A DNA stretch of 64,000 nt from Chiloscyllium plagiosum (Eukaryota), in the NCBI RefSeq assembly GCF_004010195.1, contig NC_057754.1:5100220-5164219 (forward strand). Reading direction: 5' to 3'. The first letter of the stretch is position 1. Each line of letters opens with the position of its first letter. A program made the translations under genes and the position numbers. This document shows, piece by piece, positions 15,191 to 63,289 of this stretch. The notes under the pieces are model-generated. The model did no database searches. It saw nothing but the letters and a program-made list of their open reading frames with translations, and was not told the origin of the DNA.

Positions 15191-16311
15191 CATTCATGGA
15201 TGAAGAGCCTTTTAGATTTTGCAATTTACATTGAGTTAGCACCTTGCCCAATTTAGCACCAACCCCCACCGAAACACTTAAGCACCATTGATAAGGCTTT
15301 TTTTAAAAAAATACAAATCTAGTTACTATTGTGAAATACTGGATCCAATTTGCACCCATTCGGTCCCCTTAAACAGCAACACCTTGCTCATAGAGTCATA
15401 AAGCACAGAAACAGGGTTTCGGCCTGAAACATTGATTTTCCTGCTCCTCAGATATTGTCTGGCCTACAGTGCTCTTCCACCCTCACAACTATTGACTGTG
15501 GCTTCCACCATCAGCAGTCCTTACTGTCTCTTAGTCACAGAAACAGAGCCTTCGGTCCAACCAATCCATGCTGAACCTAAACCCAAACTAAGCTTGTTCC
15601 ACCTGCCTGCCTTGGGCCCATCAACTTTTCCTATTCATGTACTTAACCAAATGTCTTTTAAACGCTGTAACTGTACCCGCATCCAGTACTTCCTGAGGAA
15701 GTTCAATCCACATGTGAACCCGTTTGCTTTGGTGTTGGCCTCGGGGTAAAACATTGGCACCAAAGTACCACTGGCGATCTCTTGAAAACATCTGCCAAAG
15801 AGGTAGGAGATGTAGCTCCAGGCTCATCGGCCATTCAAGGAACAATAGAACTCAAAGATAAACAAATTGCTCCTGAAAATCATCACATCACCCTGGAGCA
15901 TTCAGTCATGGAGGCAAGCAATCAGGGAATAGTCGCTCCTGTGTTTGCAGAGAGAGAAGCAGTCATGAAAAAAAATTTTTTTAAAGTAAAAAAAACAACT
16001 TGCTGGAAAAATCTCAGCAGGTCTGGCAGCATCTAGTGGGCAGAAAGCAGAGTTAATATTTTGGGTCTATATGACCCTTCTTCAGAACAGTTCAGCAATT
16101 TCTGTTTGTTTCTGAATTGCACCATCTGCAGTTCTTTGAGTTCTGTGGAAAACAACAAAACCATGCAGTGACACTGAATTTCCTAGATGGATGGACATAG
16201 TCATCAGCGAATGATTACCAATGATAACTGACTCCAGGCGGCTAGCGAGAACTCCACTTCTCACCATGGTTGTTCAAAATATTGGCATTGTCTAAAAGAT
16301 GGAACCTCTTG

Positions 16312-17810
16312 ACTGAAATAGTTCCACAGAGGCTGGTATCCTATTGCCAAATCACCCTTTATTTACACACGGGAGAGTCCTTGACACTGATCCAGCTCGC
16401 AGAGTGAACAGGATGTCGGACACCCCTGTCCGTCTCTGTTAGCTATGCCTCCCTGATTGGACCAGATCAATAGCCCCAATCACAGAAATCCTATTCTATA
16501 AAAAAAGGTCCTACTGGCTGACATTGTTACAATTGCTCCATCCATCTTTCTCGGAGTCCTGGTTCATTTCTTTTTGTATTTCCTCCTGGGGCACTTTAGC
16601 ACTGGGTTAGGTGCGTCCAACTTTGACTCTGATATAGGCATGTGTAATGCACAATAGCTCAGCTCTTGGACCTGGAGCGCCTTGGAAGAAATTCATTCCC
16701 TTCTTCAGGTGGCAAAGGCGTCAAGACAGCGACAGCTGCCGTGCTCATCTCAGATTCCTAAACATCTTCAACAGTTGGTCCATTTGCTTATTCAGGACTG
16801 TCGCACCTATCTGAACTTTAAGTAACTGGACGGGATCTCACATCGACCAAGCCTCTTTTTCATGCAGGAACATTCCCGTGGTTCCTAAACCAAACGTCAT
16901 CTCCTGAAGTAAACCATCTCTCTCACTTAGTGGAGTTTGGCACATTAGCATTGCTGAAGCCGTTTCTCCCTCCCTCTCCCCTGTCAGGGAAGATTAGATT
17001 TAGGATCAGTGGTGCTGGAAGAGCACAGCAGTTCAGGCAGCATCCGAGGACAGGCAAAAAATCGACGTTTCGGACAAAAGCCCTTCATCAGGAATAAAAA
17101 GCAAGCTGGTGCAGTCTTCTCCCCTTCAGCAATTTTGCTGGAGCTATCCTTGTATCTGCATGAGGGGTGTTTCTATAATCAAACAGGAACCTGGGCAGTC
17201 TGGTACCAAGTAAAGCTGCAGGCTATTTATTTAAGCCTGCCTTCAAAGTCTGGACTGCTCTTTCTACCAAACCATTGGATGATGGATGGTATGGAGTTGT
17301 CCTTATGTATCAAATACATTCGTCTTTAGGAAATATTTGAATGCCCTGCTGGCATATGATGGCCCGTGTATTCTAAAAGATGTGCACAATTTTTCTATTG
17401 TTGTCCCCGTGTTTGACAAATGAACTCTTGCATGTCCAGCCACTTTGAGTAGGCATCCAAAATGACTTAAAACAGTCAGCCCATGAAAGGGTCTGCATAG
17501 TTGACATGTATCCAAGTTCAGGGTTGGAGTGGCTGTTTCCATGAATGTGGGCAACCTGTTGGTGGGAATATATGTCCTCGTTGGCACTCTGGACACTACC
17601 TCACCAACGCAGCTATGTCCATATGCAATGCTGGCCACAAGATATATTTTACATTTTGTATCTAGTGTGATCTTTGCTCAGGACAATCACTCTTGCTCCC
17701 ATAATAATATGCCATCCTCTACTGTGATAGCATCAAGAACGTCAATGCCAGACACAAGACTCCTCTGAGCGAGAGGCAGACAGTTTAGTTCAAACTGTGG
17801 TGTCAAAACC
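16312..17810 (-). mobile_element. Ty3/Gypsy LTR retrotransposon 3' fragment (integrase remnant plus 3' LTR about 16312..16530)
   Basis: Degenerate integrase (LHVNYADPF-like, DNGP-like); purine tract followed by a TG...CA LTR containing AATAAA. Confidence 0.65.
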
Positions 17811-17824
17811 ACAGGAATGTCCCT

Positions 17825-18660
17825 GCATGCATAAAAAGGCATGGTCGACACGAGGTGTGGTTCTGCGACGCACGAAGTTCGAGTAGATGAGGTAGTCCTC
17901 AACAAACACATGGACCACAGGAAAGCTGCAACCCTGCAAATGGGGCAAGAGCAAAACATACTTGGCCCCTCAGAACATCCAGAGTTGTTCCTGAAGAAGG
18001 GCTTATGCCCGAAACGTCGATTCTCCTGCTCCTCGGATGTTGCCTGGCCTGTTGTGTTTTTCCAGCACCACACTTTTCAACTCTGGTCTCCAGCATCTGC
18101 AGTCCTCACTTTCTCCCTCAGAACATCCAGCAAGGCTGTCAGAACCCACGGGTTCTCTCCTTCCACTCAGTGTTGAAGCAATCTCGGAGGACGAGATGTA
18201 AAGGGCAGATATTGCAACCTCAATGCTGTTACCACCTGAAGATGAAATTCGTCCAAGAAGTTCCAGTCACAACAGGCAGACTATGGTCCAGTACTCACAG
18301 AGTTGCAGGAATTGGACCGGATGCAAAAATGCCCCAGGAGAAACTAAAGGAAAAAGGATGGGCCTATATCCTAGGATAAGAGGGGGAGGGCTGTAGTGAT
18401 TAGAATGACGTCAGCCAACAGAATATGAATTCCCTGATTGGACCAGATTAACAGCCCCAATCAGGGAAACCTGGCCGACAAATATAAAGGGAAGTGTCCG
18501 CAGTTATGCGGTAGTGTGGGGGTTAAAAAAGAAAAAGAAAACGGAAGTGTCAGGGTTCTGCTCACTCTCGAAGTCAGCTGGGTCAGTATCATGTACTTTG
18601 CACATGTCAATAAAGGGTCACTTGGTGACAGGATACCAGCCTTTGTAGAGTTATTTCAGT
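17825..18660 (+). mobile_element. Ty3/Gypsy 3' fragment with PPT (gagggggaggg) and 3' LTR about 18392..18658
   Basis: LTR is the reverse complement of 16312..16530; contains TATAAA and AATAAA; VLNKHMDH integrase C-terminal remnant. Confidence 0.65.
17988..18021 (+). ncRNA. minimal hammerhead ribozyme core
   Basis: ttc-CTGAAGA-A-GGGC-TTAT-GCCC-GAAA-CGTC-gat. Confidence 0.6.
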
Positions 18661-24800: not shown

Positions 24801-27800
24801 AAAAGGACAGGGAGGGCAACTTTTTCACACAGAAGGTGGTGCATGTATAGAATGGAGCTGCCAGAGAAAGGGGTGGGGGCTGGTACAATTACAACATTCA
24901 AAAGGCATCTGGAGGGGTACAAGAAATGGAGGGTTTGGAGGGATCTGGGCCAAACACTGGCAAATGGGACTAAATTAATGTGGAACATCTGGTCGGTGCA
25001 AACAAGTTGGACCAAAGGATCTCTTTCAATGCTGTAAATCTCTATGACACTGACTTTATGATTGACAGCTAATTACTTTACGAAGCACAGAGCTAATGTG
25101 GGCAAGTGCTGCAGCTATGTTCAGCACTGGCAACAGTCACATGGTGGCTCAGTGGCTAGCACTGTTGCCTCACAGCGCCAGGGACCTGGGTTCCAGCCCC
25201 CCTCAGACGACTGCGTGGAGTTCGCATGTGCTCCCTGTGTCTGTGTGGGTTTCCTCCCACAGTCCGAAATTGTGCAAGTTAAGTGGATTGGCCATACTAA
25301 ATTACCTGCTGCGTTTATGGATGTGCAGGTTAGGTGCATTGACCATGGGGATGTACGGTTACAGGGATGGGTCTGGGTGGGATGCTTTTTGAAGGGTCAG
25401 TGGGGGTTGTTGGGCCAAATGGCCTTTTTCCCCAGACTGTAGGGATTCTATGGAAATAGTGGCTTCACTGTTTTTCAGTGACATTAGATGAGAATAAAAC
25501 TTGTCCAGCCACTGGGACAGTTACCATTCCAAATTTGCATAGTGTCATTGCCCCAGACCTCCCTCCAATCCCTGAACAGACAGGGCTTTGGTTTAATGTT
25601 GGAAAAACTGCACCTTTTATGATGATACACACTTGATACTGCGTCAAAGGTATTAAATTAGATTACATACTCAAGTTCTCATGGAGCAAAACCGTTACAG
25701 CTGACGCAAAACTGAACATTTAGTATCCAGAAAGCATCCAGTTATCAAGATGTACAATTGCATAACCTCTATAAATATAAACCTATCATAAATATAAATA
25801 TTTTGACTTTATATGCCATTAGAGAGAGGGGAAAAAAAAAGAAAAAAAACAACATTTACAGAAACTTGAGCTAAATCAATCGGAATGTAATTCAATACCT
25901 ATTCACCCATGTCAAATCTGACAATATTTGCCTCAGGAATGCAAAAATGAAAAGAGGATGCACTCCAGAAAATGGGAGATTTCAAAAGTTTTGGTCAAGA
26001 AGCTTTAGCCTCAGTTAAGAGATTGTTCTTAATCCATGAATCTGGTGAGTGGGAAGCTCTTATGCAATGAGATGACACAGGCAACAACATTCACCTGTTT
26101 CAACCAAATGAGTCTTCTCCCTCTGCTGACTCAGAATAGGAGGGTAACTGTAGTGGCCTAACCACAGCCATCAGCTAAAGTGAGTGAATGGGCCCAGAAC
26201 TAAAAGTAGGATCTGAATGCCTTCACAACACTATACCGAAATCACAGTAAGCCAGAGTTTAGATCAGAGTGGTGCTGGAAAAGCACATCAGGCAGGACCC
26301 TGATGAAGGGCTTTTGCCCGAAACGTCGATTTTCCTGCTCCTCGGATGCTGCCTGACCTGCTGTGCTTTTCCAGCACCACTCTGATCTAAACTCTGGGTT
26401 CTAGCATCTGCAGCCCTCATTTTTGCCACACAGTAATCCACTCGACCATTCAGAGTCAGAGTTGTACAGCACGAAAACAGACGCATCAGTCCAACTCGTC
26501 CGTGCTGATCAGATATCCTAAATTAATCCAGTCCCATTTGCCAGCATTTGGCCCATATCCCTCTAAACCCTTCCTACTCATGCACCTATCTAGATGCTTT
26601 TTAAATGTTGTAATTATACCAGCCTCCACCACTTCCCCTGGCAGCTCAATCCATACACATGCCACCCTCTGCTCGAAAAAGTTGCCCTTAGGTCCCTTTT
26701 ATATCTGTCACCTCTCACCTTAAACCAATGCCGTCTACGTTTGCCCCAACCCAGGGAAAAGACCTTGTTTATTCACTCAATCCATGCCCCTCATGATTTT
26801 ATAAAATTCTATAAAGGTCACCCCTCAACCTCCAGAGAAAATAGCCCAGCCTATTCAGCCTCTCCCTATACCTCAAACCCTCCAACTCTGGAAACATTCT
26901 TGTAGATCTTTTCTGAAGCCTTCAAGTCTGACAACGTCCTTTCTATAGTAGGGACACCAGAATTGCATGCAGTTTTCAAAAGACAAAAAATATATCCATC
27001 CATGTTTGAAACGTACAGAAGAGTGCTGCACTTTCAAAACTACGATCACTAACAGACAGAACAAAGAAAATTTACAGCCCAGAAACAGGCCCTTCAGCCC
27101 TCTAAGTCTGTGCCAATCCAAATCCATTGTCTAAACCTATCGCCCAATTTCTAAGCACCTGTATCCCTCTGCTCCCCATCCTCTCATGCATCTGTCCAGA
27201 TGCACCTTAAATTAATCTACCGTACCTGCCTCTACTACCTCTGCTGGCATCGCGTTCCAGGCACCTACCATCCTCTGTGTAAACTACTTTCTGTGTGTAT
27301 CCTCCTTGTACTTTTCTCCACTCACCTTGAACGCATGACCTCTCACCCTGAGAAAAAGCATATCTCTGTCTACCCTTCATGATTTTGTAGACCTCAATCA
27401 CTTTTTTTTCTAATGAAAACAATCCTAACCTAGTTAACCTCTCTTCACAACTAGTATCTTCCATACCACCTTCCTCTTAAACTTTCTCTGCACCCTCTCC
27501 AAAGCATCCACATCCTTTTGGTAATGTGGTGACCAGAACTTTACACAGTATTCTGAATGCGGCTGAACCAAAGTCTTGTACAATTTTAACGTAACTTGCC
27601 AGCTCTTATACTCAATACCCCGTCGATGAAGGCAAGCATACCATGTGACTTCTTGACCGCTCAATCCACCTGTGCAGCAACCTTCAGGGTACAATGGACC
27701 TGAACTCCCAGACCTCTCTGCTCATCAACTTTTCCCAAGTCTCTTCCATTTACAGTATGGTTTTCTCTAGAATTAACCTTCCAAACTACATCACCTCACA

Positions 27801-39800: not shown

Positions 39801-42800
39801 TCAAATATCGGATTAGCCGAAGGAGATCTCGAGGTACCGATAGAAACATTACACCAAAGAGCTGTTTCAATCCTGATCGCGTCTTTTGTTTACGGTGAGT
39901 AAAAACGATCTCGGCTCACTGAAATGCTACAGAAAACAGTCCTGGATTTCGATGGGGGCCCAGACACCATCTCCAAATGACTGACCTCCCACCCACTCTC
40001 CCTCTCCCCACACTTTCCCTAGAGTTCTACATAGGGGTGAACTCTAAACCGCACTTCCCCAGATAAGCTCTTTAACATTGCCCTATACAGGGCAGAGGTA
40101 GAACTTTTCAAAAAGTTGCAGTAAAAAGTTGTGTCTCTCTGTGCATGTGCGTGCATGCACGTACTATTTGGAGACTTACCCCACAAAGGCAGCAGCAGTC
40201 TTACTATTGGTGCCCACTCTGTCTGCCCCGGCAGCAGGGGCGCACAAGGGTTGGACAGTGGTGGTGGTGGTTGGGGGGGGGGGGGGGTGGAGAAAGGAGA
40301 CTCGTGCACGGTATGTTACTGTCCTCTCCTGAACGGGGAGGAAATTTAACAGAAAACTCTGAGTCTCAGAGGAGAGACATTGAATCAATTAACCAAATAA
40401 TCAATTATCCAAATGAAATAATGTCCGCCCATCTTGTTTGGATAATCAAGGTTCCCCTATAGAGGTTTACAAAATCACGAAGGGTATAGATAGGGTCAAT
40501 TGTAGCTGCCTTTTCCCTGTGGCAGAAGTGAGTACTGCAGATGCTGGAGATCAGAGTCAAGGTTAGAGTGGTGCTGGAAAAACATAGCAGGTCGGGCAGC
40601 ATCCGAGGAGTAGGGGAAAAAAAAAAATCGACGTTTCGGGCAAAAGCTCTTCATTATTCCACCTTTTCCCTGTGATGAGGGATTTTGAGGCTGGGAGCAT
40701 ATTGTTAAGGTGAGAGGAGAGATTTTAAAAAAGACTTGGGGGCAATTTTTTTTTAAAAAATCAGAGAGTGGTTTGTGCGTGGAATGAACTTCCTGAGGAA
40801 GTGGTGGATGCAGGTATAGTTACGATGTTTAAAATACACATGGATAAGTACATGAATATGGCCAGAAGCAGGCAGGTGGGACTAGTTCAGTTTGTGATTC
40901 TGTTCAGCATGGGCTGGCTGGGAAAAAGGATCTGTTTCCGTGCTGAATGACTCTATGGTGTATGTACGCTTTCAATTACATTTGGCTTCTCTTACTTTAT
41001 CCATTGTAGATTGTAAAGCCAGATGCTCGTTCTTGAGCTTCTGGATCTCCTGGTTTAGTTGGCTTTTCTCTTGCTTGCACTGATGTTCCAGATTACAATA
41101 TGCACGTTGCTGATCAGACAGCTCCTAACAAGTGGAGAGGAGAAAATTGCACATTCATCAGTTAATATCTCCACAATTAGTGCTGACTAATAGAATAGGT
41201 ATCGTGTATTGGGCACATTGCACTTTAATCATCTGATAAAGCAAAGTTGCCAATAGCAAATAGACTTCTACACTGGATTACTTATGAAGGTCAACAACAC
41301 CTCCTCATTGGCCTTACGCTACTGAGCCCATTCTGCCTCAAGAAACCTAAAAACTCAGGCTGGACAGCACGTGGGGCTCCAGAACTGTACTCTACATCTC
41401 TGGATTAGAATGGGAAACGAGCCCAGATACCTGCTCCCAACCACCATACAGGAAATAAAGTGTTGTTTAAGATCATCAGGCTTGGCTGTCTTGCACACAA
41501 TTTAACAGCCCACTTTCCACAGGAGAACCGCCGATGCCTGTGGTACTGGGCCTAGTCCCCAGACCAACCCTATTTAAATCGATTCTCACATCTCATGTGA
41601 ATTCATAAAGAATGAGGATGTCCAGATATTGGTTCACAAATTTAAAAACTGATATAAATGGATGAAAGGAAAGAGTGTGAGGTGGAGACAATTCCAATGC
41701 ACAGCAAGAGGGAGTGAGGTGATCGGCAATGAAAGGATGAAAGAAAGTATTTGTGCAGACTACTCTCCACTAATCTATTTATTCTAACCTGCTGGTGTTC
41801 TTTCTCTTTGTCCTTAAACTTCTGCTCCATCAGGCGTCGAGCACTTTCTGCATTCTGCCTCTGACAGCTCAGCTCCTCAGCAACCTGCTTCAGTTTCTGC
41901 TCTAGAATTGCACACTGGCAAGATAAAATAAAAAATGAATCACCAACTTCATTCTCCAATATGTCAGCCATTTAAGATAGTTAAAAAAAAAACATTTTCT
42001 GTAGTCAGTGCAAGAGAAATGTTTGTCATGGATAAGGAATACCCTTTCAATAAGGCACCATGACAAAAAAGAGAGGTTCCTTGACACCATCCTCATCAAA
42101 CACTCCCAGGGCAGGTACAGCACGAGGTTAGAAACAGTAAAGCTCCCTCTACTCTTATAAAACTGAAAGTAAAGCCCCATCCACACTGTTCCCATGAAAC
42201 ATTCCCAGAACATATACAGGACCGGGGCTGACAGAGTAAAGTTCCTTTTGTATTGTCCTATGAAACATTCCAACTGAATAAGCTATGTGCAGACGAGGAC
42301 TCTCTATACTTTTCAAAATTAAAGCAACACAATCCAACTTAAGGTGTGTCCACTAATGTGGAGAAAACGCTCATCCCATGGAGCGTAAACTAGTGCAGGC
42401 AACGGAGACGGAAGCCCAGAATTTAACCCTTTTCATCAGCCATTCAGTCTAACCCACTGCCTTTTATACTGTGCTCTAGCCTCCAATTATAAAGCAGCTC
42501 AGTTAAGTATAGCTCAATTCCCAAAGAGAGGTCAAACCTTGTTGTTGTTCTGCTCCTGCTGTATGTTTGCTCTCATTAGGTCATCTCTGCTCTTCACCAA
42601 AGCTTGTTCTTTCATCGCCAGCTCTGTTCTGGATTTCTCCAGGTGTGACTGCACTTCCTGCAACTTGTTCAGGTGATTTTTAATCTCTTTCTCTTGGGAG
42701 TGAACCCAAACCTCCAGCTCAGACATTGTACTCTGCAGCACTGCAACAAACAGTAGCAACCAAATAAAGCATCATTTTGCACACCACAAAAACAGCAGTT

Positions 42801-45800
42801 ACAATCTACTGAAACTTGCTTTTTTTTTTTTTACATATTAAAAGTTACAAGAACACAAGAGATAGGAGCAGAAATAAACCATTCCGCCCACTGAGCCTGC
42901 TCCGCCATTAACACTACGAGGGTTGATCTTGGACTCCACTTTCCTGCCCATTCCTAATATCTCTAGATTCTGGAGATTCTAAAAACTCATTTATCTCAGT
43001 CCTAAACATACTGGAAATTTTTATTCCAAAAGAGGATTCTGGAAGCTTTATTTTTCAGAGACACATAACCGTTCGAGCAAAAAAGTTCCCATCTCAATCC
43101 TAAGTGAGCGGCCCTTTATCCTGAGACTGTGCCCACACGTACTAGCTTCACCAACCAGTACGAACAACCTCTCGGTGTCTATCCTATCAACCCCCTGCAG
43201 AATCGCCAATATTTCAATGAGATCACTTCGCATTCTCTAATCCTCACATTAGTCAAACTCTTATCATAAGACCAGCTTTTAATTCCAGGGACACTGGAAT
43301 TTTCTCCAATGGAGCAATCCAGCACCAGAGCCCTATGGCAATTTAAGCAAGATCTTTACTCTTCCACTCCAATCAACACATTTACTTCCTAGATCACAAC
43401 TCACTTAGCCTGTCTATTTCTCTATGCAGCCACTAATAGCTGACATTCCAAGCAGCTTTTGCATGATCGGCGAGCTGAAACACAGTAGCCATAATCTCTT
43501 TGGTCAAGGCATTAGTATCGATTATAGAAGGCCGAGGTCCCCAGCAATCATTCCTGAGACACTCCAATGGGCACCTACAAGCTGCCAACTTAAAAAGGGT
43601 CAATTTACGCCTACAGTTTTCTGTACCTTAATCAATCCTCTATTCAGGGTAATAGGTTACCCTCAACTCCCTGAGCCTATATTTTGCCAACTGACTTTGT
43701 GTGTGATGTCTTATCAAATGCCTGTGGGTATTATCGCCTCTGTATAACCAGCACTCCTTCACTATCACCTTAATATCTTGTTCACACACCCAACTGTTTA
43801 AGTACGATTTAACCAGTTTCACTCTTACGTGAATTTACATAGAGTCATAGAGCTGTGAAGCACGGAAACAGACCCTTCAGTCCAACCCATCCAGATATCC
43901 TAAATTAATCTAGCCTTATTTGCTGGCATATCCCTCTAAATACTTCCTGTTCATGTACGCATCAAGATGCCTTTTAAATGTTGTCATTGTACCAGCCTCC
44001 ACCACTTCTTCTGGCAGCTCATTCCACATACAATCTGCCCTCAATGTGAAAAAGTTGCTCCTTCGATCCCTTTTATATCTTTCCCCTCTCACCTTAAACC
44101 TATGCCCTGCAGTTTTGGACTCCCCTACCCTGGGAAGATGATCTTGGCTATTCACCCTATCTATGCCCCTCATGATTTTATAAATCTCTATAAGGTCAAC
44201 ACTTGGCCTCCAATGCTCCAGGGAAAACAGCCCCAGCCTATTCAGCTTCTCCCTATAATTCAAACTCTCCAACAACCTCGTAAATCTTTTCGGCACCCTT
44301 TCAAGTTTAACAACACCTTTCCGATAGCAGGGAGACCAGGATTGAATGCAGTGTTCCAAAAGCTGCCTAACCAAGTTCTGTAGAGCTGCAACATGACATC
44401 CCAATTCCTATACTCAACTCATTGACCAATAAAGTAGAGTGTCCCAAAGCCTTCTTCACTATCCTGTCCACTTGTGACTCATCTCTGCAAAATATCATCT
44501 TGGAATTCTCACAAAATTCCACCTTCCAAACCAAGCAATTAGTAATACACAGTTTAAAAAAAAAATCTAGAGAAATGAGAGGCAGCCCTGACAATGCTCT
44601 ACCCTTTAATGACTAATATTCCCCCCCCCGCCTTTTGCTCAACACTCCCCCACACAAACTAAGAAATCCAACGTCTGCCCCATCACCTCAGCCCCCTTTC
44701 TGCCCTCAAGAGTCCCAGCTGCTCCTACCAGGAGGAGCAAAGTTTTCACACATACTACATGTCTTTCTCAGCTGCTCATGATGTGGTCTCCTTGACTTTG
44801 GAGAATCTGTGCTAGTTCACCCCACTACCTTATTGAACACCCCCCACTCAGTTTGGAAGTAGTTTGATGCCGACCTTCCACCTGCCTGGCATTTCCATTC
44901 TCCTTTCCCAGGTCTCTGTCCCTCAGCCACCCACGTTGTTCCAGTGATGTTTAAAGAAATGCATCTCTATGACTAAGTGAACTCAAGAAGCACAACACCA
45001 CATCTTTTGGTTAGGCAACTGACAAACCTCTGGACACAGCAATTTCTGATCAAAACCAATGAATCCCACCTGCTCAGACAGCAGGCAGTAATGGCTTTCT
45101 GTTACCATTAACATCTTTTTGGATGCATCTTTTGCTTCTTTATTTTGTTCTGTTATTATACCCTTTTGCCTGGCACCGTCATTCCATTATCTGTGCCCAC
45201 TACACCATTACAGACTTCCCTCTTAAGTTTCCTCTTCTAACCCACCTTGACTCTACACTTGCTTATTGACCTTTTTAAATAAGTTAGCCTTTTCATACTA
45301 TTTGTTTTCCCCTCTCTCTCAAACAATATAACACGATTTGGTGAGTGGGTATTTTCCAGCATTTCCTGCGGTCATCGCTGGATTATATTTGAATCTGAAG
45401 CTTTCCCAGAACACTAATTTCCACAAGTATCAACACGAGAGGTGAGATAACTACGCCTTTCTTTCCTGTAAATGTCAGGTTGCCAGACTGGCTGAGCAGG
45501 AATGTGGCAGAATCTGCAAAATAAAAAGGAGGATAGCAGGAATCTAAACAATATCGCAAAAAAAACACCACAGTATCACGGCACCTTGGTTTTCTTTCCT
45601 CAATTCCTGCACTTCAGCATTTGCAGACACCTCAAGAGGACTGAGTTGGCCACTCCCACGCTTCGATCCAAGGGTACTGGATTTGTTGTCATTCTGTTTC
45701 TGGCTGCTGGAATTGTAGTACGGAGGGGACCTCGGCTGCTCCCATGGAAATACAGAGGAGGGTGATCCTCGCCCAACAGGACTCTCGGGCACCCGAGTTG

Positions 45801-50785: not shown

Positions 50786-53700
50786 AGAGGGGTCCATTGG
50801 AAGGTGGCTAATATGGTGCCATTATTTAAGAAAGGTAGCAACGAAATGCCAGGGAGCGAGAGACATCAGTGGTAGATAAGTTGTGGGAGGGGATTCTGAG
50901 GGAAAGGATTTACATGTATTTGGAAAGGCAAGGGCTGATTAGGGATAGTCAACGTGGCATTGTGTGTGGGAAATCATGGCTCACTAACTTGATTTGAGTT
51001 TTTTGAAGAAGTGACAAGGACGATGGAAGAAGGCACAGTGGTCAGCTTAAAGACAAACCCAGTAGTGGTTCGTCCGTCTTTGCTGAACTCCCAATCAAGT
51101 GAAAGAGAACCGGATATGGGAGAAAGTTAAGTGAGAATTTTCATAAACGAGCTACACCACTTCTCCAAAGAGGAACAAGTAAAATCGGAACGTTGACGGT
51201 ACAGGAGATGGCCATTCAGCCCACTGTGTCTGTATCGGCTCTTGCAAGAACTACTCAGCCAGTCCCCACTCTCCTGCCTTTTCACTGCCGTCTTGAACAC
51301 TTCAGATAAATTATCCAATTCCTTTGTGAAAGTTGACACCCCCATCTCTTACCTACGCCTGGCACGTCAAGATCAAAGCAGAAATGTTTAAAGTACTCCC
51401 AATCAGGTTTGCTGGTCTTCAGCTATGTAACTCACCCTCATTAGGCCTGCTGAGCGTGGAACACCCAGGATAGATCTTAGTTGGAGTTAGGTGGAGCTGG
51501 CATTCTGTTGGTGTTGAGGCCCTTTGACTTCGCTCAAGCTCTGCTTCTAGCCTGAAAGCATTCCATGGTTTTACTTTGTATTAAAAAGTTCTTTTTAAAC
51601 CCTTAAAATTAGTATTGCCAAGAGATGAAGATGCAAAGGCCCTTGGTGCAAGGATGCACCATCAAGCTTGGAAAGAGTAGTAAAGGGAAGTTAGGAAGGT
51701 GATTAGGTTAACACCTAACTTTGGTTTCAGAAGCCTGTAAAGCGTAGCAGTCAGAAGCAGCTGAGAGGAGTGAGCAATCCAACAGTTCCTGCAGTCTTGG
51801 CAGTGAAGGAGTTAAGAGTAAGTGACAACACAGAAGTCACAGAAATGTTTGCGCATGAGAAGGGAATAAAAAGCAAATCACCTAAGAGAGCAACAGCACA
51901 GAGAGAGAGTGAGAGAGAGTGAGAGAGAGAGAAAGTGTGAGAGAGAGAAAGAGAAATCGCAGATTGGAAAGAGAAAAGATAAACAGAAGCTTTCATCCAT
52001 GACAAGACATTTTCATATAAATCAACAGCACAATTACAAATGAACATTACAACAGCTGAGCCCCAGATAATGAATCACAAAACATCAGCACATTCCATAC
52101 CCGCTCACATTAGACTTTGATTCATAGCTCTGTACAAAGGCAGCAGATGTTTACACACCATTTAAAGGCCTAGCAACATTCGCATCACCTGGACTGAAAT
52201 GTTTCAGCTGTCCTCAATTTCAACATTTTCCCCAACTGATCCAAAGGAATAAACATAGGCAGCGGTGAAAGAAAAGGTAATTGAGACAGTGAAAAGGTTC
52301 GAGATTGATAAGCACGAGATACTGGACTGACTGTCTGTACTTAAATGCGGAAATTATGCAGGCACTGGCTGTAAGGTTTTAATCTTCCTTAGATTCGGGG
52401 TGGGCCCCTGTGGTGAAGTGTTAGTGCCACTACCTCAGGGCCAGCAGGCTGAGGATCAAGCTCTACCTGCTCCAGCTGTGTGCAAAAGCAAAACTAGTGC
52501 AGATGCTGGAAATCAGAAACAAAAGCAGAAGTTGCTGGAAAAATTCAGCAGGTCTGGCAACATTTGTGGAGAGAAATTAAGTGTTAAAATTTCAGGTCCA
52601 GTGACCTTTTGTCAGACCAACACGAAGAACAGCAACTAAAAGCCAATCAATTTAACACAGATGGTAAGAAACAACAGCTTGACATGAAATGCAGACAAAT
52701 GAAGGTTAATTTAGCATAGAATTGTGTTCTATGGAACAAAATAGAAAATTGTGCTCAGTTAACTTGCTGGTTTTTTGAAAGAGGCAATGCCAAAGGCAAT
52801 GTTATTATTGTGATGTACATGGACTTCCAAATGGCAGTTGATAATGTCATACAACAGACTTGTGGGCAAAAGGTACAAATCGTGAAATAGGGACAATAGC
52901 AACATGGATACAAATTAGCTGACTAATACAAACCAAAGAGCAATGGTCAAGTTAATTTTTTTCCAGGCTTGGGAAAGGTTTGAAGAGGATTTCCATAGGG
53001 GTCAGTACTGGAGCTCTTGTTTTTTCTGACCTATAATAAATGTCCAATAACCTTAATGTATAAAGGAACATGTCAATATTTGCGAATGAAACAAAACTTG
53101 GAGGGATTTGCAAACTGTGAGAAGCAAAATGACATAGACAAACGGAGGAATGGGCAGACAAACAGCAGATGAAGTTCATTGGCGAGAAATGGAAGAACGT
53201 GGAGGCAAAGCACAAAACGAAGTGTACAACTCTAAAGGGTAATGCAAGAGAAGGACCAGTGGTGGATATGTGTATGAGTAACTGAAGGTGTCTGGACAGG
53301 TTCACAGCACGGTTAATCAAGTACAGAGAACCCAAGGCTTTGTAAATGAAGGCATAAAGTACAAAAGCAAGGACGTCACGATGAACTTGTACCAGGAGAA
53401 AGTGAGGTCTGCAGATGCTGGAGATCAAAGTTGAAACTTTATTGCTGGAACAGCACAGCAGGTCAGGCAGCATCCAGGGAACAGGAGATTCGACGTTTCG
53501 GGCACAGGCCCTTCTTCAGGAATGGTACCAGGCACTTGCTTGACCTCAGCTGGAGGATTGTGTCAAGATCTGGGCACCTCATTTTAGAAAGCATTAGGAG
53601 GGAGTGCAAAAAAGATACACAAGAGTGGTTCCCAGCATCAGAGATTTAGAATAATAGAGAAATAAAGCACGGAAACAGATCCTTCGGTCCAAATCGTCCA

Positions 53701-56700
53701 TTCCAACCTGATATTCTACATTAATCTAGTCCTATTTGCCAGCATCTGGCCAATATTCCTGCAAACTTTTCTTCTTCATATACCCATCCGGATGCCTTTT
53801 AAATGTTGTAATTGTACTAGTCTTCTCCAGCAGTTCATTCCATACATGCACCACATGAAAAAGTTGCCCCTCAGGTCCCTTTTAAATCTTTCCACACTCA
53901 CCTTAAACCTATGCCCTATAGTTTTGGACTCCCTTATCCTGGGAAAAAGACCTTGGACATTCACTCTATCCAAGACCCTCATGATTCTGTAAACCTCTAT
54001 AAAGTCGCCACACAGTTTCCGATACTCTAGAGTAAACAGCCCCAGCCTCTACCCATAGCTCAAACCCTCCAACCCTGGCAACATCCTTGTAAATTGTTTT
54101 AGAACCCTTTCAAGTTTTACAACATCTTTCCTATAACAGGGAGACAAGAATTGCATGCAGTATTCCAAAAGTGGCCTAACCAATGTCGTATACCATGTCA
54201 ATGCATCAGTGTGCCTTGGTTTTGGTGGAAGTGAATGTTTGTGGATGTGGTGCCAACATCAAGCAAGCTGCTCTGCCCTTTAGAGTCAAGCTTCGAGCAC
54301 TGTTTGAGCTGCATGCATCCAGGCAAGTGGGGAGCATTCCAGCACATACCTGATCTACGCCTTGTAGATGACTTTGTAGAGTCAGGAGGAGTGCTTCACT
54401 GTAAAATTGCTGGCCTCTGGCCTAGTCTTGTAGACACAGTATTTGTATGGCTAGTCAACGTTATCATCTACGATATGGATAGTGGAGGTTTCAGAGAATT
54501 GGTAATGTCATTGAAAGCTATACAGGTATTGAAAAGGAGTCTGAACAGAGTAGACAGGGAGATACTGTTCTATTCGCAAAAGCATACAGAAAGGGGCCAA
54601 GGTTTTAAAAGTAACTGGACAAAGAAACATTTTCACAAAGCAGTTAAGGTCCTAATGCAGAGCCCAAGAGAAGAGTGGAGACAGGTTCAATCAAGCCATT
54701 CGAAGAGAATTTGTTTGTTATTTCAAAAGTAATGATGTGCAAGGTTATGGGGAGAGGTGGGAGAATTGCTGATTTGTACAGATAAGATTATGAACTATTG
54801 CAGAGTTATAGCTCCCCAATAAACAGTACAGCAAACAAAGCTGGCACAAGCCTGGACAATACCTTTTTAGTTCTTGCTCCAGGTTGTCTATCTGTTTCTT
54901 TGCTGCCAGCAGCTGCCCCTCCAGGTTGCATACCAGGGCCTCCTTTACCTGAATCTCGTGGCATAGCCTCTGCTGTGCCTTCTCTAGACTGTTGCGTGCC
55001 TCTGTCAGACCCTGTGTCCCTCTCTTCAATGCCACATTCTCATTCCGTTCATCTTCAAGCTTAAAAACAATAAGAGTCGCATCAAAATTGCATACAGGTA
55101 ACGTGCCTGAAATGGTGAGGTACATGCAAGAAGATTTCCACTCTGAAATGCTCAGTCTCTATCTCTCCTCTGTACAACTGCTACTTAAAACCAATTGCTG
55201 AGAAAGCATTCAGTCACCCTTCAGAAGAATTTGTTCTTTTGCTTAGTTAAAAATCACACAACACCAGGTTATAGTCCAACAGATTTACTTGGAATCACTA
55301 GCTTTCGGAGCGCTGCTCCTTCATCACGTGGTTGTGGAGTATAAAATCGTAGGACACAGAACTTATAGCAAATGTTTACAGTGTGATGTAACTGAAATTA
55401 CATATTGAAAAAGACCTGGATTGCTTGCTAAGTCTCTCATCTTTTAGAATGAGCATGCTGATTTCAGTTCTTTCATATGTTAATTCCAGAACTTTCTTAA
55501 AGTTACATTCTCAAGTGAACTTTAACAATATGTGCCATGTTGGCCCAGATAATGCATTGAAGGTGTGAGGTGCCCTGTGTGAGACTGTCTGTACCCCAAA
55601 GTTTAGACAGATTCTAATCTAAAAAAAAGGACTTACATGGATTCATGCAGTTTTTGAGCAAACTAAAACGTAATTCTGCAAGTACAAATTCACCCCACAA
55701 ACTTGCGTGTGTGTGTGTGTGTGTATGTGTTTTGCTGAGGTGTTAACTTTTGTCTTTTCTTACTGTTTAGAGGTGCTATACAAACGCAAGCTTTTGCTGC
55801 ACTTTCCAATGAGAATCCACATAAACACCATTTGAGTGTTGAGTTGAGGGGTGACCTTATAGAGGTTTATAAAATCATGAGGGGCATGGATAGGGCAAAG
55901 GTTTTTTTTCCCAGGGTAATGGAGCCCAAAACTAGAGGGCATAGATTTAACGTGAGAGGGGAAAGATATAAAAGGGATCTAAGGGGCAACTTTTTCATGC
56001 AGAGGGTGGTATGTGTACAGAACAAGCTGCCAGAGGAAGTGGTGGAAGCTGGTACAATGTCAACATTTAAAAGGCATCTGGATGGGTAAATGAATAGGAA
56101 GAGTTTGCAGGGACATGGGCCAAATGGGACTAGATTAATTTAGGATATCTAGTCGGCATGAATGAGTTGGTCCAAATGTCTGTTTCCGTGCTGTACAATT
56201 CTAAGTTCAGGTTCTTGAAAACAATTCTTCAAACATTGTAATGTACACAGAAGAGGCTTTGTTTGTGAGAGATCATTGAAGAGACCAGTTTTCAACGCTT
56301 TTCACTTTGTACTCATGAAGATAACTGCAAGAATGCCAAAGTTCAAACAATCGCAACAGTTTATACTCAAAAATGGCATGACTGAATCAGTCAACTTGCC
56401 AACCATCCGTTTGAAATTTTGGCATTCTTGTATTTGTCCTGATGATTGCATATGAAAGCATCAGCCATGTGTCTCACTCTTCAGCAGAATTCAGTTACGT
56501 AAAGAGATATGGGAGCCTTGTGTATTTAGGAGGAATAGGTGTCCTTGGACCCAAGATTCCCAAACAGACGTATTAATTGTTGGAAACTAATCAACATGAT
56601 TGGTCATCATTTATGTACATGGATCCTGAATGGTGGAAGGTGATGAGAAAGTTGGTAGCCTTACACCTGCTAAGGAGATACAGGAAAGCATTCGACCACG

Positions 56701-58538: not shown

Positions 58539-59539
58539 GATAACTACGATGCGACGTCGGTCGATGATCAGGCCTTGAAGAAAGCAAAAGTTGATACGTC
58601 AGAAAACAAATATACACTAGCAGCACAAAAGGAGATGACAGCTGTTTCAGAAAGAATAAGAGCATGCTGAGAGCGTAACGCTTGCTCTCAAGCACTTTCA
58701 CACATTGCACACCTTTCCTTCCACTTTCATCGCCCCTCCCAAGCTCAATGCTGGACAAGTTATAATACTGGCAGCTTCAATCACCATGGCCATTCTCCAC
58801 ATTTCGTGCTTACAATTATTATGTCTGACCACAAATGGCTTCACCCATGGCGCTCAATCACATCTTGTTGGAGCGGCTATAACGTTTTACGAATACAAAG
58901 AGTTTTCATTTCACCTCACCACCCTCTTATCCCAACTGGTGGAGATAATGGACAAGTCAGATCCTAGAATGGAACCTGGCTTAATAAAACTATGACAAAT
59001 GCAGAGAATGCTGGAGAAACTCAACAGGTCTGGCACTACAGAGAGAAACAGAGTTAGCATTTCAAGTGTCCGGTATGACTCTTCTTCGGCACTAGGTTTT
59101 TCAGAACCAGTAGCAGGTTTCCAAGGTTCAAATAGTTTACAGGGCTTATGCCCGAAACGTCGATTCTCCTGTTCCTTGGATGCTGCCTGACCTGCTGCGC
59201 TTTTCCAGCAACACATTTTCAGCTCAAATAGTTTACAGACCATTCAGAATTCACAAACCACAAAACCTTAAATGAATAGGCAGGAATAGAGAGGCTTAGG
59301 ACTAAAACAAACAGCCTTCTTGGCAATGTTTTTAGAATAAAAAGAAAGTTTGCGTGCATACAGGAAACACTACATGATTCACTTGAACTTTGGTATGTTT
59401 CTGTTAAAAATATTCTCACATCACAAGGTTTTGTCCCGAGCCAACTTCTTTTGGTTTGGACTGAATATATCTAGTATCAGTTTTGTTCCACCAAATATTT
59501 ATTATTTTTATAAATTGTGTTGCACATGGTAACAGTCCG

Positions 59540-59912: not shown

Positions 59913-61394
59913 GCAGGAAGGCATCTTTGGACAGCCACCAGAGGAATGCCTTTTAAACAGAATACAAACAAAAGCTCAGGATCTTCCAACAGATTAGTAA
60001 CACCCGAACCTGAAAGAACTGTGCCAACACTCGAAAAACAAGGGAAATTAAGGGGTCAATTAAAATGAATGATCAAAAAAAAATAAACATTTACTGATAT
60101 TCTTCCCAGATTCATTTGTTTTTTTTAAACAAGTCTCACTCATTGACACAAGGTAGATGCCGACAAAGTTACAAAATTTAAGACATTTGAATTTTACATG
60201 AATAGGAAAGGTTTAGAGAGATATGAAACAAATGCAAGCAAATGGGATTAGGTTAGTTTGGGAAAATTGGTCAGCATAGATTAGTCGGACTGAGGGATCT
60301 GTTTCCATTCTGTATGGCTTTAGGAGATAATGAGGACTATAGATGCTGGTAAGTCAGAGTCGATAAAACGTGTGGAACTGGAAAAAGCAAAGCTGGTCAA
60401 GCAGCATCAGAGAAGCAGGGGCCTTGACTTTTCAGGTCAGAAGCTTTCATCAGGACTGCCCAGTCTTAATGAAAGGTTCCGATCTGAAACATCAATCCCC
60501 TGCTTCTATGCTTCACCTACTGTGCTTTTTCCAGCTCCACACTTTATCCATTCATATGACTTTATGGAGGTCACTTATCCATGTATCTAGAGGATTTGGG
60601 GGTCTTTCTACACATATGATAAAAAGCTAGCATTCACATTGAGAGGTAATAGAGAAGGCAAAGAGAGCCTATTAGCCTGTATTTCAAAGGAAATGGAGTT
60701 CAGTATATAAATAAAACTATAAAGGCACTATTTAGAGTACAGCTGGAATACTGTGAACAATTTTTGGTCCCTTATCTAAAGGGAATATGTACTGGCATTG
60801 GAGGCCATTCAGAGAAGGGTCATAAGTTGATCCTGAGTATGGAAGAACTATCTTGCGAGGAGAGGCTTAGCAGATTGGACCTGCACATTGGGGGAATGAG
60901 ATGTAACCCTATTCAAACAGGCAAGATTCTTATGGGCTTGACACGTAGATGCTGAGAGGTCACTTCTCCTTAGGTGAGGATCTAGGGTTGGAAAACAAAG
61001 GGATTGCCTACTTAAGGTAAAAATGAGAAGAAAGATCTTCTCTCAGAAGGTACTGCATGCATGAATTTCTTTGCTGCAAGAAGGCTAGGGTGTCAGCAGT
61101 GTTTTCCTTTTTTTAATCCTTCTGCGCAGTCTGTGCATGCAGCTCAGTGGGAATATTGGCCATTAAAGTACATTGAAGGCTGAGACTGATTTTTAAAGTG
61201 GGGTTGAGGATTATCAGATCAGGCATGTTCCCATTGAATGATGGGGTAAACACAAGCAGCTGAACGGCCTACTTCAGCAAGAACTCGCAGATGGAGTTTC
61301 TCAATAAAGTGGAAGACTGGAAAATGAGATTGACGATTATCAGTTCAGGCACAAACCCACTGAATTTGTGGCAAAAATAAATGGGCTGTAGGGC

Positions 61395-61851: not shown

Positions 61852-62455
61852 TGGGCAAAAGTGAGGACTGCAGATGCTGGAAACCAGGGTTTAGATTAGA
61901 GTGGTGCTGGAAAAAGCACAGCAGGTCGGGCAGCATCCTAGGAGCAGGAAAATCGACGTTTCAGGCTAAAGCCCTTCATGAAGAATGGAGGCGAGGCCAC
62001 GGGTTGGTGGGGTTGATTGGTGCGGCAGTCCTGGAGATGTCCCTAAAGCGCTCTGCGAGGAGGCAGTCTCCCCAATGTACAGGAGACCGCATCGGGAACA
62101 ACGGATACAATAAATGACATTGGTGGATGTGCAGGTGAAACTTTGATGGATATGGATGGAGGTAAGGGCGCAGGATTTGCAATTCCTGTGGTGGGTTAGG
62201 GTTGGAGGGGTGGGGTCTGAGAGTAGAGGTGCAGGATGTGGATGAGATGCATTGGAGGGCATCGTTAGCCACGTGGGAAGGGAAATTGCGGTCTCTAAAG
62301 AAGGAGGCCATCTGATGTGTTCTGTGGTGGAACTGGTACTCCTGGGAGCAGATACAGCAGAGGCAGATGAATTGGGAATACGGGATGGCATTTTTGCAGG
62401 AGGTAGGGTGGGAAGAGGTGTAATTCAGGCAGCTGTGGGTGTCGGTGGGTTTGTA
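61852..62455 (-). mobile_element. Penelope-like retroelement 3' fragment (GIY-YIG endonuclease) nested in a SINE 3' half
   Basis: ORF 61966..62391 reads FTCTSTNVIYCIRCSRCGLLYIGET (GIY-YIG with CxxC), followed by the family-A terminus. Confidence 0.88.
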
Positions 62456-63289
62456 AGTACATTAGTCAGGGGTAAATACAGAGTAGGGGGAATGGGTCTG
62501 GGTGGGTTACTCTTCAAAGGGTCAGTGTGGACTTGTCAGGCCAAAGGGCCTGTTTCGACACTGTAGGGACTCTAATCTAAAAAAAATTGGCCTGTTTCCA
62601 CACTGTCAGGATTCTATGACTCAATGAAAACAGAAAATGCGAGATAAACTCAGCAGATCTGGCAATGTCTGATGAAGGGCTTTTGCCCAAAATGTCGATT
62701 TTCCTGCTCCTCGGATGCTGCCTGAACTGCTGTGCTTTTCCAGCACCACTCTAATCCAGAATCTGTTTTCCAGCATCTGCAGTCGCTGTGTTTACCCAAT
62801 GTCTCTGGAGAGAAAGCAAGAGGTCAGGGCTTTTTTCCTGGAGGATCACCAGACCGCAAGTCTGCTTTCTCTCCACAGGTGCTGCCAAACCTGCTGAGTT
62901 TCGCCAGCAACTTCTGCTTCTCTTTCGGATTTCCAGCAACGCGGTTCTTTATGCTGGGCTTAGCATCCCATTGAACTGTGCAGCAGTCTCAGCGGCAAAT
63001 GTGGGGACTGCAGATGCTGGAAACCAGAGTTTAGATCAGAGTGGTGCTGGAAAAGCACAGCAGGTCAGGCAGCATCCGAGCAGCAGTCTCAATGGGCTGA
63101 ACGGCCGTAGGTCTGATCACATTCTTGTTGGGGTGGGGGAATCAGGGCCGTGCTCTGTTTATTTTTTTTTCTTGCATACACTCCTGCAGCTTTTGCTCAA
63201 GTAGATTCAACACCAGGTCCCCGTGGAGCAGGAACCAACACTCCCAGACACGTTGGGGTTTGCACAACTCAACCAAACCTGCCCCCCCG

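What the first reader, a model, noticed from the sequence alone, without database searches (positions are those of the whole stretch)
53395..53525. Family-A Penelope-like termini carry a minimal hammerhead ribozyme (about 10 copies in 64 kb)
Seen: an element of about 125 bp recurs at about 12870, 14135, 17005, 17988, 26300, 40525, 53395, 59140, 61855 and 62668. It contains CUGANGA-A-GGGC-loop-GCCC-GAAA-CG-UC. The helix II loop varies (TTTT, TTAT, CTGT) while the stem is mostly kept. Helix III is reduced to the palindrome ACGU. The 53488..53523 copy has a perfect 4-bp helix I and is in the sense orientation of the CENPF-like pre-mRNA. The 61855 copy is attached to a GIY-YIG ORF. Established: PLEs carry minimal hammerheads thought to cleave as dimers. 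Inference: this is a very high-copy ribozyme-bearing retroelement or retrozyme-like family.
Basis: partly seen in the sequence, partly recalled or inferred. Interest (0 to 1): 0.7.

Follow-up and report, generated by a model that had tools for sequence, protein, structure and literature searches.

The report
Hammerhead-headed Penelope retroelement end stubs
The repeats are short, mostly decayed end-pieces of a Penelope-like jumping gene that begin with a known kind of minimal hammerhead ribozyme motif; most start at the motif's front edge, which in related elements lies about 30 bases after a TATA box, so they are likely copies that ran off the start of the element's RNA.

Summary
The repeat is real. 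There are 13 family-A segments in 64 kb, plus older related families. They are 5'-truncated ends (pLTR fragments) of a Neptune-type Penelope-like element (PLE). Evidence: 8-16-bp target duplications, an optional ~35-nt tail, head-to-head inversions, and one copy joined to a deleted RT-thumb/GIY-YIG remnant about 78-83% identical to bamboo-shark PLE proteins.

The motif is the published minimal type I hammerhead (Cervera 2014). Only 4 of 13 segments keep core plus helix II. The core decays like its flanks (p=0.31). The "perfect" helix I at 53488 is a private substitution (1 of 11). There are no tandem arrays, so this is not a retrozyme. Cleavage is untested.

Added here: 9 of 13 5' ends fall within 9 nt of core C3 and none at the cut site. 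In related metagenome elements a TATA-like box sits 34-38 nt before C3 (8 of 9 loci with genuine upstream DNA; background 2%). The transcript therefore probably starts at helix I, and these stubs would be promoterless run-off cDNAs. Earlier notes on this genome already report the 5' pile-up; I found the TATA spacing neither there nor in print. New member of a known kind.

The parts
53397..53524 (-). Family-A stub, 128 bp: starts 5 nt before core C3, includes the tail; lies in a CENPF intron, sense
53488..53523 (-). Minimal type I hammerhead motif: helix I 53523-53520 with 53491-53488, C3 = 53519, helix II, ACGU palindrome; cut predicted 53492/53491
   Evidence: cleavage untested
53525..53532 (-). 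8-bp target-site duplication, 5' side
53389..53396 (-). 8-bp target-site duplication, 3' side
12866..12990 (-). Family-A stub, truncated inside helix II (about +9), with tail; no TSD found
14107..14236 (+). Family-A stub with about 31 nt of genuine upstream element DNA, no tail, helix II broken; reference for the read lay (C3 = 14138)
15415..15535 (+). Old family-A stub, starts in helix II (+8), 11-bp TSD
16985..17097 (-). Family-A stub, complete core (G-U in helix II), no tail; no clear TSD
17983..18114 (+). Family-A stub, complete core, starts at about -7, tail, 16-bp TSD
26251..26428 (.). Head-to-head composite: inverted tail-less arm (about 26251-26295) plus forward arm with complete core and tail; one 8-bp TSD
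40522..40661 (-). Family-A stub, 5' end at the core, 13-bp TSD, sense within the CENPF span
59143..59223 (+). Family-A stub, starts in helix II (+8), no tail, 15-bp TSD
61856..62460 (-). Longest copy: RT-thumb and Cys-linker/GIY-YIG remnant with internal deletions, joined to a mutated hammerhead and tail; lies between two halves of another short repeat
62671..62796 (+). Family-A stub starting at the core, G12 mutated, 8-bp TSD, inserted into a family-B inverted arm
62992..63079 (-). Family-A stub lacking the hammerhead (starts at about +42), 12-bp TSD
52490..52620 (-). Decayed copy of an older related family (B), in the same intron as the 53395 copy; other B copies near 15990, 58985, 62832
60322..60544 (.). 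Older related family (C), head-to-head palindrome; both arms end about 4-5 nt before their cores
51552..54862 (-). CENPF intron holding the 53395 and 52490 copies

Best explanation
These repeats are dispersed, target-duplicated end fragments of a Neptune-type Penelope-like retroelement that carry its minimal hammerhead motif, and most were likely made when the element's reverse transcriptase primed about 95 or 130 nt downstream of the motif and ran off the 5' end of an RNA predicted to start at the motif's first helix. Steps: (1) shown: the unit is the 3' end of a PLE and has two 3' ends about 35 nt apart. (2) Shown: 5' ends cluster at the hammerhead's front edge, not at its cut site. (3) Shown in related elements, weakly in this family: an AT box lies 34-39 nt before core C3. 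(4) Inferred: polymerase II starts 4-7 nt before C3, so the hammerhead is the first ~36 nt of the element's RNA. (5) Inferred from the Anolis element (PMC11167929): the RT primes internally at two sites; at the 5'-proximal pLTR it reaches the RNA's start after 100-135 nt. (6) Inferred: the stubs lack the TATA box, are dead on arrival and decay neutrally. The ribozyme would act only in full transcripts, as a dimer and probably with the protein's help. The intronic 53488 copy is most likely a silent passenger.
For: PLE identity: the remnant is 78% and 71% (P0001), 83% (P0002) and 82% (P0003) identical to Chiloscyllium proteins, and 63-73% to a whale-shark protein. Relatives carry Pfam RVT_1 (4 of 4 scanned) and GIY-YIG (3 of 4). 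Exact 8-16-bp TSDs bound 8 of 12 family-A loci. 9 of 13 segments have the tail and 4 lack it. 5' ends: 9 of 13 lie within -9..+9 of C3 (constant-hazard null: binomial p 3.5e-8; scan test for the post-hoc window p 3e-4); 7 of 10 if only TSD- or inversion-bounded ends are kept; 0 of 13 at the cut (+28). In two DNA runs the top-listed 5' loose end is 14134, the first base of helix I (1054 and 1104 records); 7 of 11 listed opposite-strand joints use 14134/14135 (21 of 26 and 29 of 31 contigs; 30 further joints not shown). In an unrelated metagenome family 6 of 10 distinct copies start at -2..-9 against three long references. TATA-like box at -34..-38 in 8 of 9 loci with independent evidence of genuine upstream DNA, background 2.0% per 9-nt window. 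Of 2 loci picked by protein alone, both have the hammerhead motif 3' of the ORF (degenerate in L027); L027 has TATA at -39/-37 and L028 a T-rich variant at -37. Helix I was outside the search pattern, yet its two core-proximal pairs covary across families (25 of 26 cells paired, 9 double changes; whole-structure covariation 0.316, 0 of 500 shuffles). Within family A, changes fall more on N7 and loop II than on the core (9/52 vs 5/113, p 0.013), while core and body do not differ (5/113 vs 42/562, p 0.31).
Against: No transcription start was measured. The single-cell polyA run shows no start or end pile-up, but it is not a 5'-end method. The family-A upstream box is known only from a majority consensus of loose ends (agreement 0.54-0.57) and reads CATTTATC, not a canonical TATA. 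The 14134 pile-up is partly an alignment effect: the reference differs from most reads just upstream and the loose ends share a few more letters, so true ends may lie a few bases further up, and subfamilies with other upstream DNA would clip there too. The TATA loci fall into about two related groups, so they are not 8 independent cases; the -38 hit in L018/L026 is a chance hit in an inverted arm; the second L027 copy has no match. Window 5' ends were read by eye, and 3 of 13 have no TSD. Metagenome hits were selected for an intact core, which excludes ends inside it. The one PLE promoter that has been dissected (D. virilis) is internal and TATA-less, with a start well upstream of the hammerhead (PMC2377424; PMC4209133). 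No full-length element or 5' pLTR was seen.
Confidence: 0.65

Rival explanations
1. Same PLE end fragments, but the 5' pile-up comes from the reverse transcriptase stalling or switching template at the hammerhead fold (or at a protein bound to it) in a longer RNA, not from the RNA's start.
For: Three window copies end inside helix II (+8, +8, +9). The best-supported inversion joint links the two strands of helix I (14134 with 14171; 13 contigs in each DNA run). Ends scatter over about 18 nt.
Against: A stall at a hairpin should leave ends 3' of it (+20 to +30), where 0 of 13 lie. Six of 13 end at -7..+1, past helix II. It does not explain a TATA box at a fixed 34-39 nt.
Confidence: 0.17
2. A separate non-autonomous ~130-nt family (SINE- or retrozyme-like) with its own master copies and circular RNA, moved in trans by the PLE protein.
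For: Near-uniform length, very high abundance and subfamily variants at N7 and loop II. Animal retrozymes derive from pLTRs (bioRxiv 2026.07.22.740005).
Against: No tandem array of the unit. Every copy has a different 5' junction. Some copies run on into genuine upstream DNA or the ORF (14107, 61856). No polymerase III B-box motif in 12 of 12 family-A copies.
Confidence: 0.1
3. The stubs are copies of the 3' product of hammerhead self-cleavage.
For: The motif keeps all catalytic bases in 4 of 13 segments. One contig junction lies next to the cut site (14167, table 5c).
Against: 0 of 13 window copies start at +28, and most keep the motif's 5' half, which cleavage would remove. The cut site is not among the top-listed loose ends (18 of 512 shown). 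In the Anolis element uncut RNA is the main template (PMC11167929).
Confidence: 0.04
4. The intronic 53488 copy has been co-opted and cuts CENPF pre-mRNA.
For: Complete core, 4-bp helix I and sense orientation.
Against: Helix III is absent. Isolated helix I and ACGU duplexes are marginal (+0.2 and -1.7 kcal/mol). With flanks the minimum-energy fold is a non-hammerhead one. The only sense neighbour in the intron is decayed. The helix I change is private.
Confidence: 0.04

Closest known systems
Minimal hammerheads (min-HHR) in the pLTRs of metazoan Penelope-like elements (Cervera and de la Pena 2014, PMC4209133)
   Same: Type I core, one extra base between positions 9 and 10.1, G10.1-C11.1 pair, palindromic 15.2-16.2 with no helix III, short helix I, mostly solo copies, nearby pairs on opposite strands. 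Reported in fish Xena, Poseidon and Neptune elements, coelacanth (about 4,000) and Xenopus (about 9,000).
   Different: Helix II is only 4 bp and family helix I is 2 bp plus a U-U mismatch. Density is about 13 segments per 64 kb. Sharks are not named in the sections I read. That paper does not map 5' ends or a promoter.
Neptune clade of EN+ PLEs (as defined in Craig et al. 2021, PMC8557442)
   Same: RT, then a CX2-5CxxC linker, then C-terminal GIY-YIG; hammerhead in the 3' end/pLTR; 5' truncation, inverted adjacent copy and an optional 30-40-bp tail.
   Different: Only a deleted remnant lies in the window. No microsatellite targeting here: copies sit in unique DNA or other repeats, with 8-16-bp TSDs.
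Poseidon element PAc of Anolis (Frangieh et al. 2024, PMC11167929)
   Same: Two internal RT start sites that explain the tail; product length set by the template's 5' end; hammerhead upstream of the RT start sites; no RNA reads found at the cut site.
   Different: Different clade. Its hammerhead overlaps the start codon behind a 126-nt UTR construct, and no start site or TATA box was mapped there.
Animal non-LTR retrozymes (bioRxiv 10.64898/2026.07.22.740005)
   Same: Non-coding, type I hammerhead, derived from PLE pLTRs, and reported in one chondrichthyan.
   Different: Retrozymes are tandem head-to-tail arrays of complete units; these are dispersed, truncated single insertions.
Putative TATA + Inr in the pLTR of Adineta vaga Pen2a (PMC3846280); internal TATA-less promoter of D. 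virilis Penelope (PMC2377424)
   Same: Promoter and start site inside the pLTR.
   Different: Neither passage relates the promoter to the hammerhead or to the 5' ends of short copies.

Membership tests
Minimal type I hammerhead of PLEs | Core CUGANGA ... GAAA ... UH in order, with helix II | tested here: met
   4 of 13 segments complete; exact pattern 3 matches against 0.00 by chance
Minimal type I hammerhead of PLEs | Extra base between 9 and 10.1, G10.1-C11.1, palindromic stub of helix III | tested here: met
   features from PMC4209133
Minimal type I hammerhead of PLEs | Helix I pairs across the cut site and covaries between families | tested here: met
   Two core-proximal pairs 25 of 26 cells paired, 9 double changes; outer two pairs only 12 of 26; permutation p 0.0002 on 19 contexts. 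Relatedness between families is not corrected for.
Minimal type I hammerhead of PLEs | Self-cleavage as a dimer or with the PLE protein | not testable with these tools
   Needs an in vitro assay; the RNA run laid cannot show cut ends
EN+ Penelope-like element, Neptune type | PLE RT followed by C-terminal GIY-YIG with a CX2-5CxxC linker | tested here: met
   Remnant aligns to RT thumb, linker and GIY-YIG of P0001 and P0004; relatives have RVT_1 and GIY-YIG; linker motif read in P0001 and P0004; the remnant itself gave no Pfam hit
EN+ Penelope-like element, Neptune type | RT phylogeny groups with Neptune | not tested
   No reference clade set was at hand; clade call rests on the linker motif
EN+ Penelope-like element, Neptune type | 5' truncation, head-to-head inversion, optional 30-40-bp tail, TSD | tested here: met
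   tail continuation also in reads
EN+ Penelope-like element, Neptune type | Full-length pLTR-ORF-pLTR unit | tested here: inconclusive
   None in the window; no whole genome held
Non-LTR retrozyme | Tandem head-to-tail units, each with a complete hammerhead | tested here: not met
   Tandem Repeats Finder: 5 rows, none of this unit; the window only
Non-LTR retrozyme | Abundant circular monomer RNA | not testable with these tools
   polyA single-cell reads only; 99% of 2986 laid reads run on into unlike sequence, on both strands

The most novel reading that the evidence does not exclude
In Neptune-type PLEs from sharks to invertebrate-like hosts, a TATA box in the pLTR starts transcription at the first base of the hammerhead's helix I. 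The ribozyme is then the 5' tip of the RNA, placed to remove the cap-bearing ~32 nt, and the huge numbers of solo hammerheads in animal genomes are promoterless run-off ('strong-stop-like') cDNAs whose 5' ends map the start site. Head-to-head palindromes would arise partly by snap-back at helix I.
Probability: 0.5. Interest if true: 0.55.

Novelty: new member of a known kind. Interest (0 to 1): 0.3.

Why it matters
The ribozyme-in-PLE link is already in print, so the finding as written is an abundant new instance of it. The added point is more useful. The role of PLE hammerheads is open: PMC8557442 calls it unclear, and in vitro insertion does not need cleavage (PMC11167929). If the hammerhead is the first thing transcribed, its likely jobs narrow to decapping, making unit-length or circular RNA with the 3' copy, or switching the RNA between template and message. 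Each can be tested with CAGE and one reporter. It would also explain why genomes hold thousands of solo motifs, and it warns that counting motifs overstates active ribozymes: 4 of 13 here are complete and none has an evident partner.

Tried and rejected
Whole-genome counts: no genome is held, so copy number is not measured. Rfam: 9 weak hits, none a hammerhead. Pfam on the two remnant frames: no hit. Viral contigs: 0 matches to the core pattern and no relative of the PLE protein among 26 candidate stretches. Expression: no RNA holder listed; run X22 laid 0 reads (no test); X21 gave no start or end pile-up and is uninformative on cleavage or start site. A loose hammerhead descriptor gave 7 window hits against 0.93 in shuffles, 3 of them unrelated to the family, so I did not use it for counts. 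Folding z-scores of four whole copies and two isolated motifs were weak (5 of 6 between -0.41 and -1.38); the strongest (-2.71) is an inactive fold. The consensus fold downstream of the motif (8-bp long-range stem into the tail, 5-bp hairpin) has almost no covariation (term -0.33), so I do not claim it. Helix II conservation in the metagenome hits is fixed by my pattern and was not used as evidence. Lunse et al. 2016 is not held; I saw only its citation. Searches for prior print: hammerhead + Penelope + shark gave 1 paper with no shark data; Penelope + TATA + promoter + hammerhead + retroelement gave 0; Penelope-like + TATA box + pLTR gave 1.

Full report
OBSERVATION. The stretch 53395-53530 finds 17 relatives in the window. 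Alignment splits them into 12 family-A loci and 5 older copies of related families; an inverted arm at 26248-26295 makes 13 family-A segments. The exact core pattern occurs 3 times against 0.00 by chance. On the minus strand, 53488-53523 has helix I, the core, one extra A, a 4-bp helix II, GAAA, the ACGU palindrome and a predicted cut between 53492 and 53491. It lies sense in a 3.3-kb intron (54862-51552) of a gene with Pfam CENP-F N- and C-terminal domains. Rfam reports no hammerhead.

WHAT IS OVERSTATED. Only 4 of 13 segments keep the 12 core bases with a pairable helix II. The rest are cut inside the motif, lack it, or carry core or stem changes; the ORF-linked 61855 copy is one of these. 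The 4-bp helix I at 53488 comes from a base found in 1 of 11 copies. Core positions differ from the majority in 5 of 113 cells and body positions in 42 of 562 (p 0.31); N7 and loop II differ in 9 of 52 (p 0.013 against the core). In DNA run X1 the catalytic G12, which sits in a CpG, reads A in about 8% of depth, and a CpG G outside the core in about 12%. I infer selection in the active source lineages and neutral decay in the copies.

WHAT THE ELEMENT IS. The 61856-62460 insertion holds a frameshifted RT thumb and a Cys-linker/GIY-YIG start, with two internal deletions, running into the hammerhead on the same strand. A search with its first 90 residues gave 23 proteins among 25 candidates, the best from Chiloscyllium punctatum (82-84%) and whale shark (63%); four that I scanned have RVT_1 and three also GIY-YIG. 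The host is therefore probably a carpet shark (inference). The CX4CxxC linker points to the Neptune type as defined in PMC8557442; I built no tree. Eight of 12 loci have exact 8-16-bp TSDs. Nine segments end about 125-130 nt after C3 and four about 90-97 nt after it, which matches the optional PLE tail. The composite at 26251-26428 has the tail on one arm only. There is no tandem array.

INDEPENDENT FAMILIES. A metagenome scan for the core gave 27 matches in 26 loci. Three of the 26 have a PLE ORF upstream on the same strand. Both loci picked by protein alone have the motif 3' of the ORF, degenerate in L027. Helix I was not in the pattern. Across 13 representatives that I chose (2 window copies, 10 of the 26 loci, L028) its two inner pairs hold in 25 of 26 cells with 9 double changes, its outer two in only 12 of 26. 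This supports a real fold with a short helix I; relatedness is not corrected for.

WHERE COPIES BEGIN. Relative to C3, the 5' ends read by eye are -600, -31, -7, -6, -5, -1, 0, +1, +8, +8, +9, about +42 and about +55. Nine of 13 lie within 9 nt of C3; a constant-hazard truncation model gives binomial p 3.5e-8 and scan p 3e-4; with only TSD- or inversion-bounded ends it is 7 of 10. None lies at the cut (+28). Laid on the copy that keeps 31 upstream bases, two DNA runs gave 82,920 and 91,698 contigs. Their top-listed 5' loose end is 14134, the first base of helix I, and 7 of 11 listed opposite-strand joints use 14134/14135 (494 loose ends and 30 joints not shown). Caveat: the reference differs from most reads just upstream, so the exact base is uncertain by a few nt and divergent subfamilies would also clip there. 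In one metagenome family 6 of 10 distinct copies start at -2 to -9 (these were selected for an intact core). I noted this pile-up, before finding that earlier unchecked notes on this genome say the same (147 notes there mention hammerheads). They are not independent support.

A PROMOTER AT THE RIGHT DISTANCE. In the 9 pattern-selected loci with independent evidence of genuine upstream DNA (an ORF, or 27 nt or more shared with another copy), 8 have a TATA-like hexamer at -34 to -38; the ninth is truncated at about -30. Background is 2.0% per 9-nt window. Over all 27 matches 11 have such a hit, two of them (one locus filed twice) by chance in an inverted arm. Of the protein-selected loci L027 has it at -39/-37, its second copy does not match, and L028 has a T-rich variant at -37. 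These loci form about two related groups. For family A the loose-end consensus upstream of 14107 is C-rich with CATTTATC, the AT run falling at about -38 to -33 (agreement 0.54-0.57): right place, non-canonical. A TATA box usually lies about 30 nt before the start (established knowledge, recalled), which puts the start at -4 to -7, where a pyrimidine-A step occurs in 8 of the 9 loci.

MECHANISM. I commit to this: the pLTR promoter starts the RNA at helix I; the RT primes internally at two sites downstream, as shown for the Anolis element; at the 5'-proximal pLTR it runs off after 100-135 nt; the product lacks the TATA box and cannot be transcribed by itself. Two cDNAs from both nicked strands, or snap-back at helix I, would give the head-to-head forms; the best-supported joint links the two strands of helix I (13 contigs in each run). 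The hammerhead would work only in full transcripts, where the 5' and 3' copies can pair through ACGU, probably helped by the protein. A lone copy has marginal helices. I put the PLE-fragment identity at about 0.93 and the run-off step at about 0.6-0.65. Against it: no start site was measured, and the D. virilis promoter is TATA-less with a different layout.

RNA. Run X21 (single-cell, polyA) laid 2986 of 12.96 million records; 99% run on into unlike sequence and both strands are present, as expected for copies embedded in other transcripts. It says nothing on cleavage, start site or circles.

COMPARISON AND NOVELTY. It works like, and meets the testable criteria of, the minimal PLE hammerheads of Cervera and de la Pena. 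It fails the tandem criterion of retrozymes in this window. I found no paper on shark PLE hammerheads or on a TATA box fixed to the hammerhead; a putative TATA + Inr in a rotifer pLTR is in print. The library lacks most subscription journals and Repbase entries, so absence is weak.

WHAT I READ. PMC4209133: parts 1-2 of 4 (abstract, results, discussion, start of methods). PMC11167929: parts 1-2 of 4 and passages. bioRxiv 2026.07.22.740005: parts 1-2 of 5 and passages. PMC8557442, PMC3846280, PMC2377424, PMC6765202, PMC6155905, PMC13725137: passages only. Lunse 2016: citation only. I opened no supplements; the alignments in PMC4209133 (figs S2A, S3) could hold shark motifs and fig. S2 of PMC11167929 shows genomic copy ends, so either may bear on the novelty claims.

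VERDICT. Real, but a new member of a known kind; interest 0.3. The promoter-at-the-hammerhead reading is the part worth following.

Noticed in passing
window 60322-60544; 62634-62955; 15990-16136: Older related families (B, C) share the body downstream of the motif with family A but have a different helix II and cut triplet; they also form head-to-head palindromes with arms ending about 4-5 nt before the core. A family-A copy is inserted into the inverted arm of the B palindrome at 62671.
   Followed up: partly
window 14134 and 14171 (table 5): The best-supported inversion joint in two organisms joins the two strands of helix I, as a cDNA snapping back on itself at the RNA's 5' end would.
   Followed up: partly
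family A, +43 to +115 from C3: A predicted 8-bp stem pairs the body with the tail and encloses a 5-bp hairpin; it could be the RT binding site, but covariation is nearly absent.
   Followed up: partly
L027:1776-4604 and L028:1-1126: Penelope-like RT/GIY-YIG genes sit in two bacterial MAG contigs (one titled Endozoicomonas); most likely host DNA binned into the MAGs. L027 holds two copies in opposite orientation.
   Followed up: no
L002, L012/L021, L020/L025: Similarity between these otherwise distinct families begins at the TATA box (-38/-39) and runs through the hammerhead.
   Followed up: partly
window 5457-9994, minus strand: Exons of a gene with RRM domains and a CCHC zinc knuckle, RBM4-like by recall.
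   Followed up: no
window 31699-34731, minus strand: A 1010-codon open frame inside the CENPF span, probably one large coiled-coil exon; no Pfam hit.
   Followed up: no
window 24061-24440: Inverted repeat with 162-nt arms, 89% complementary, 56 nt apart.
   Followed up: no
window 40522-40661 and 17983-18114: A few extra bases lie between the TSD and the element at the 5' junction; at 40661 they read as a short inversion of the helix I strand.
   Followed up: no
window 27434-29004, 43916-44407, 53732-54258 and others: Many fragments of a LINE-type RT element (Pfam RVT_1 at 27859-28215) and of a ~300-bp short repeat (families D3, D8, D12); HE1-SINE- and CR1-like by recall only.
   Followed up: no
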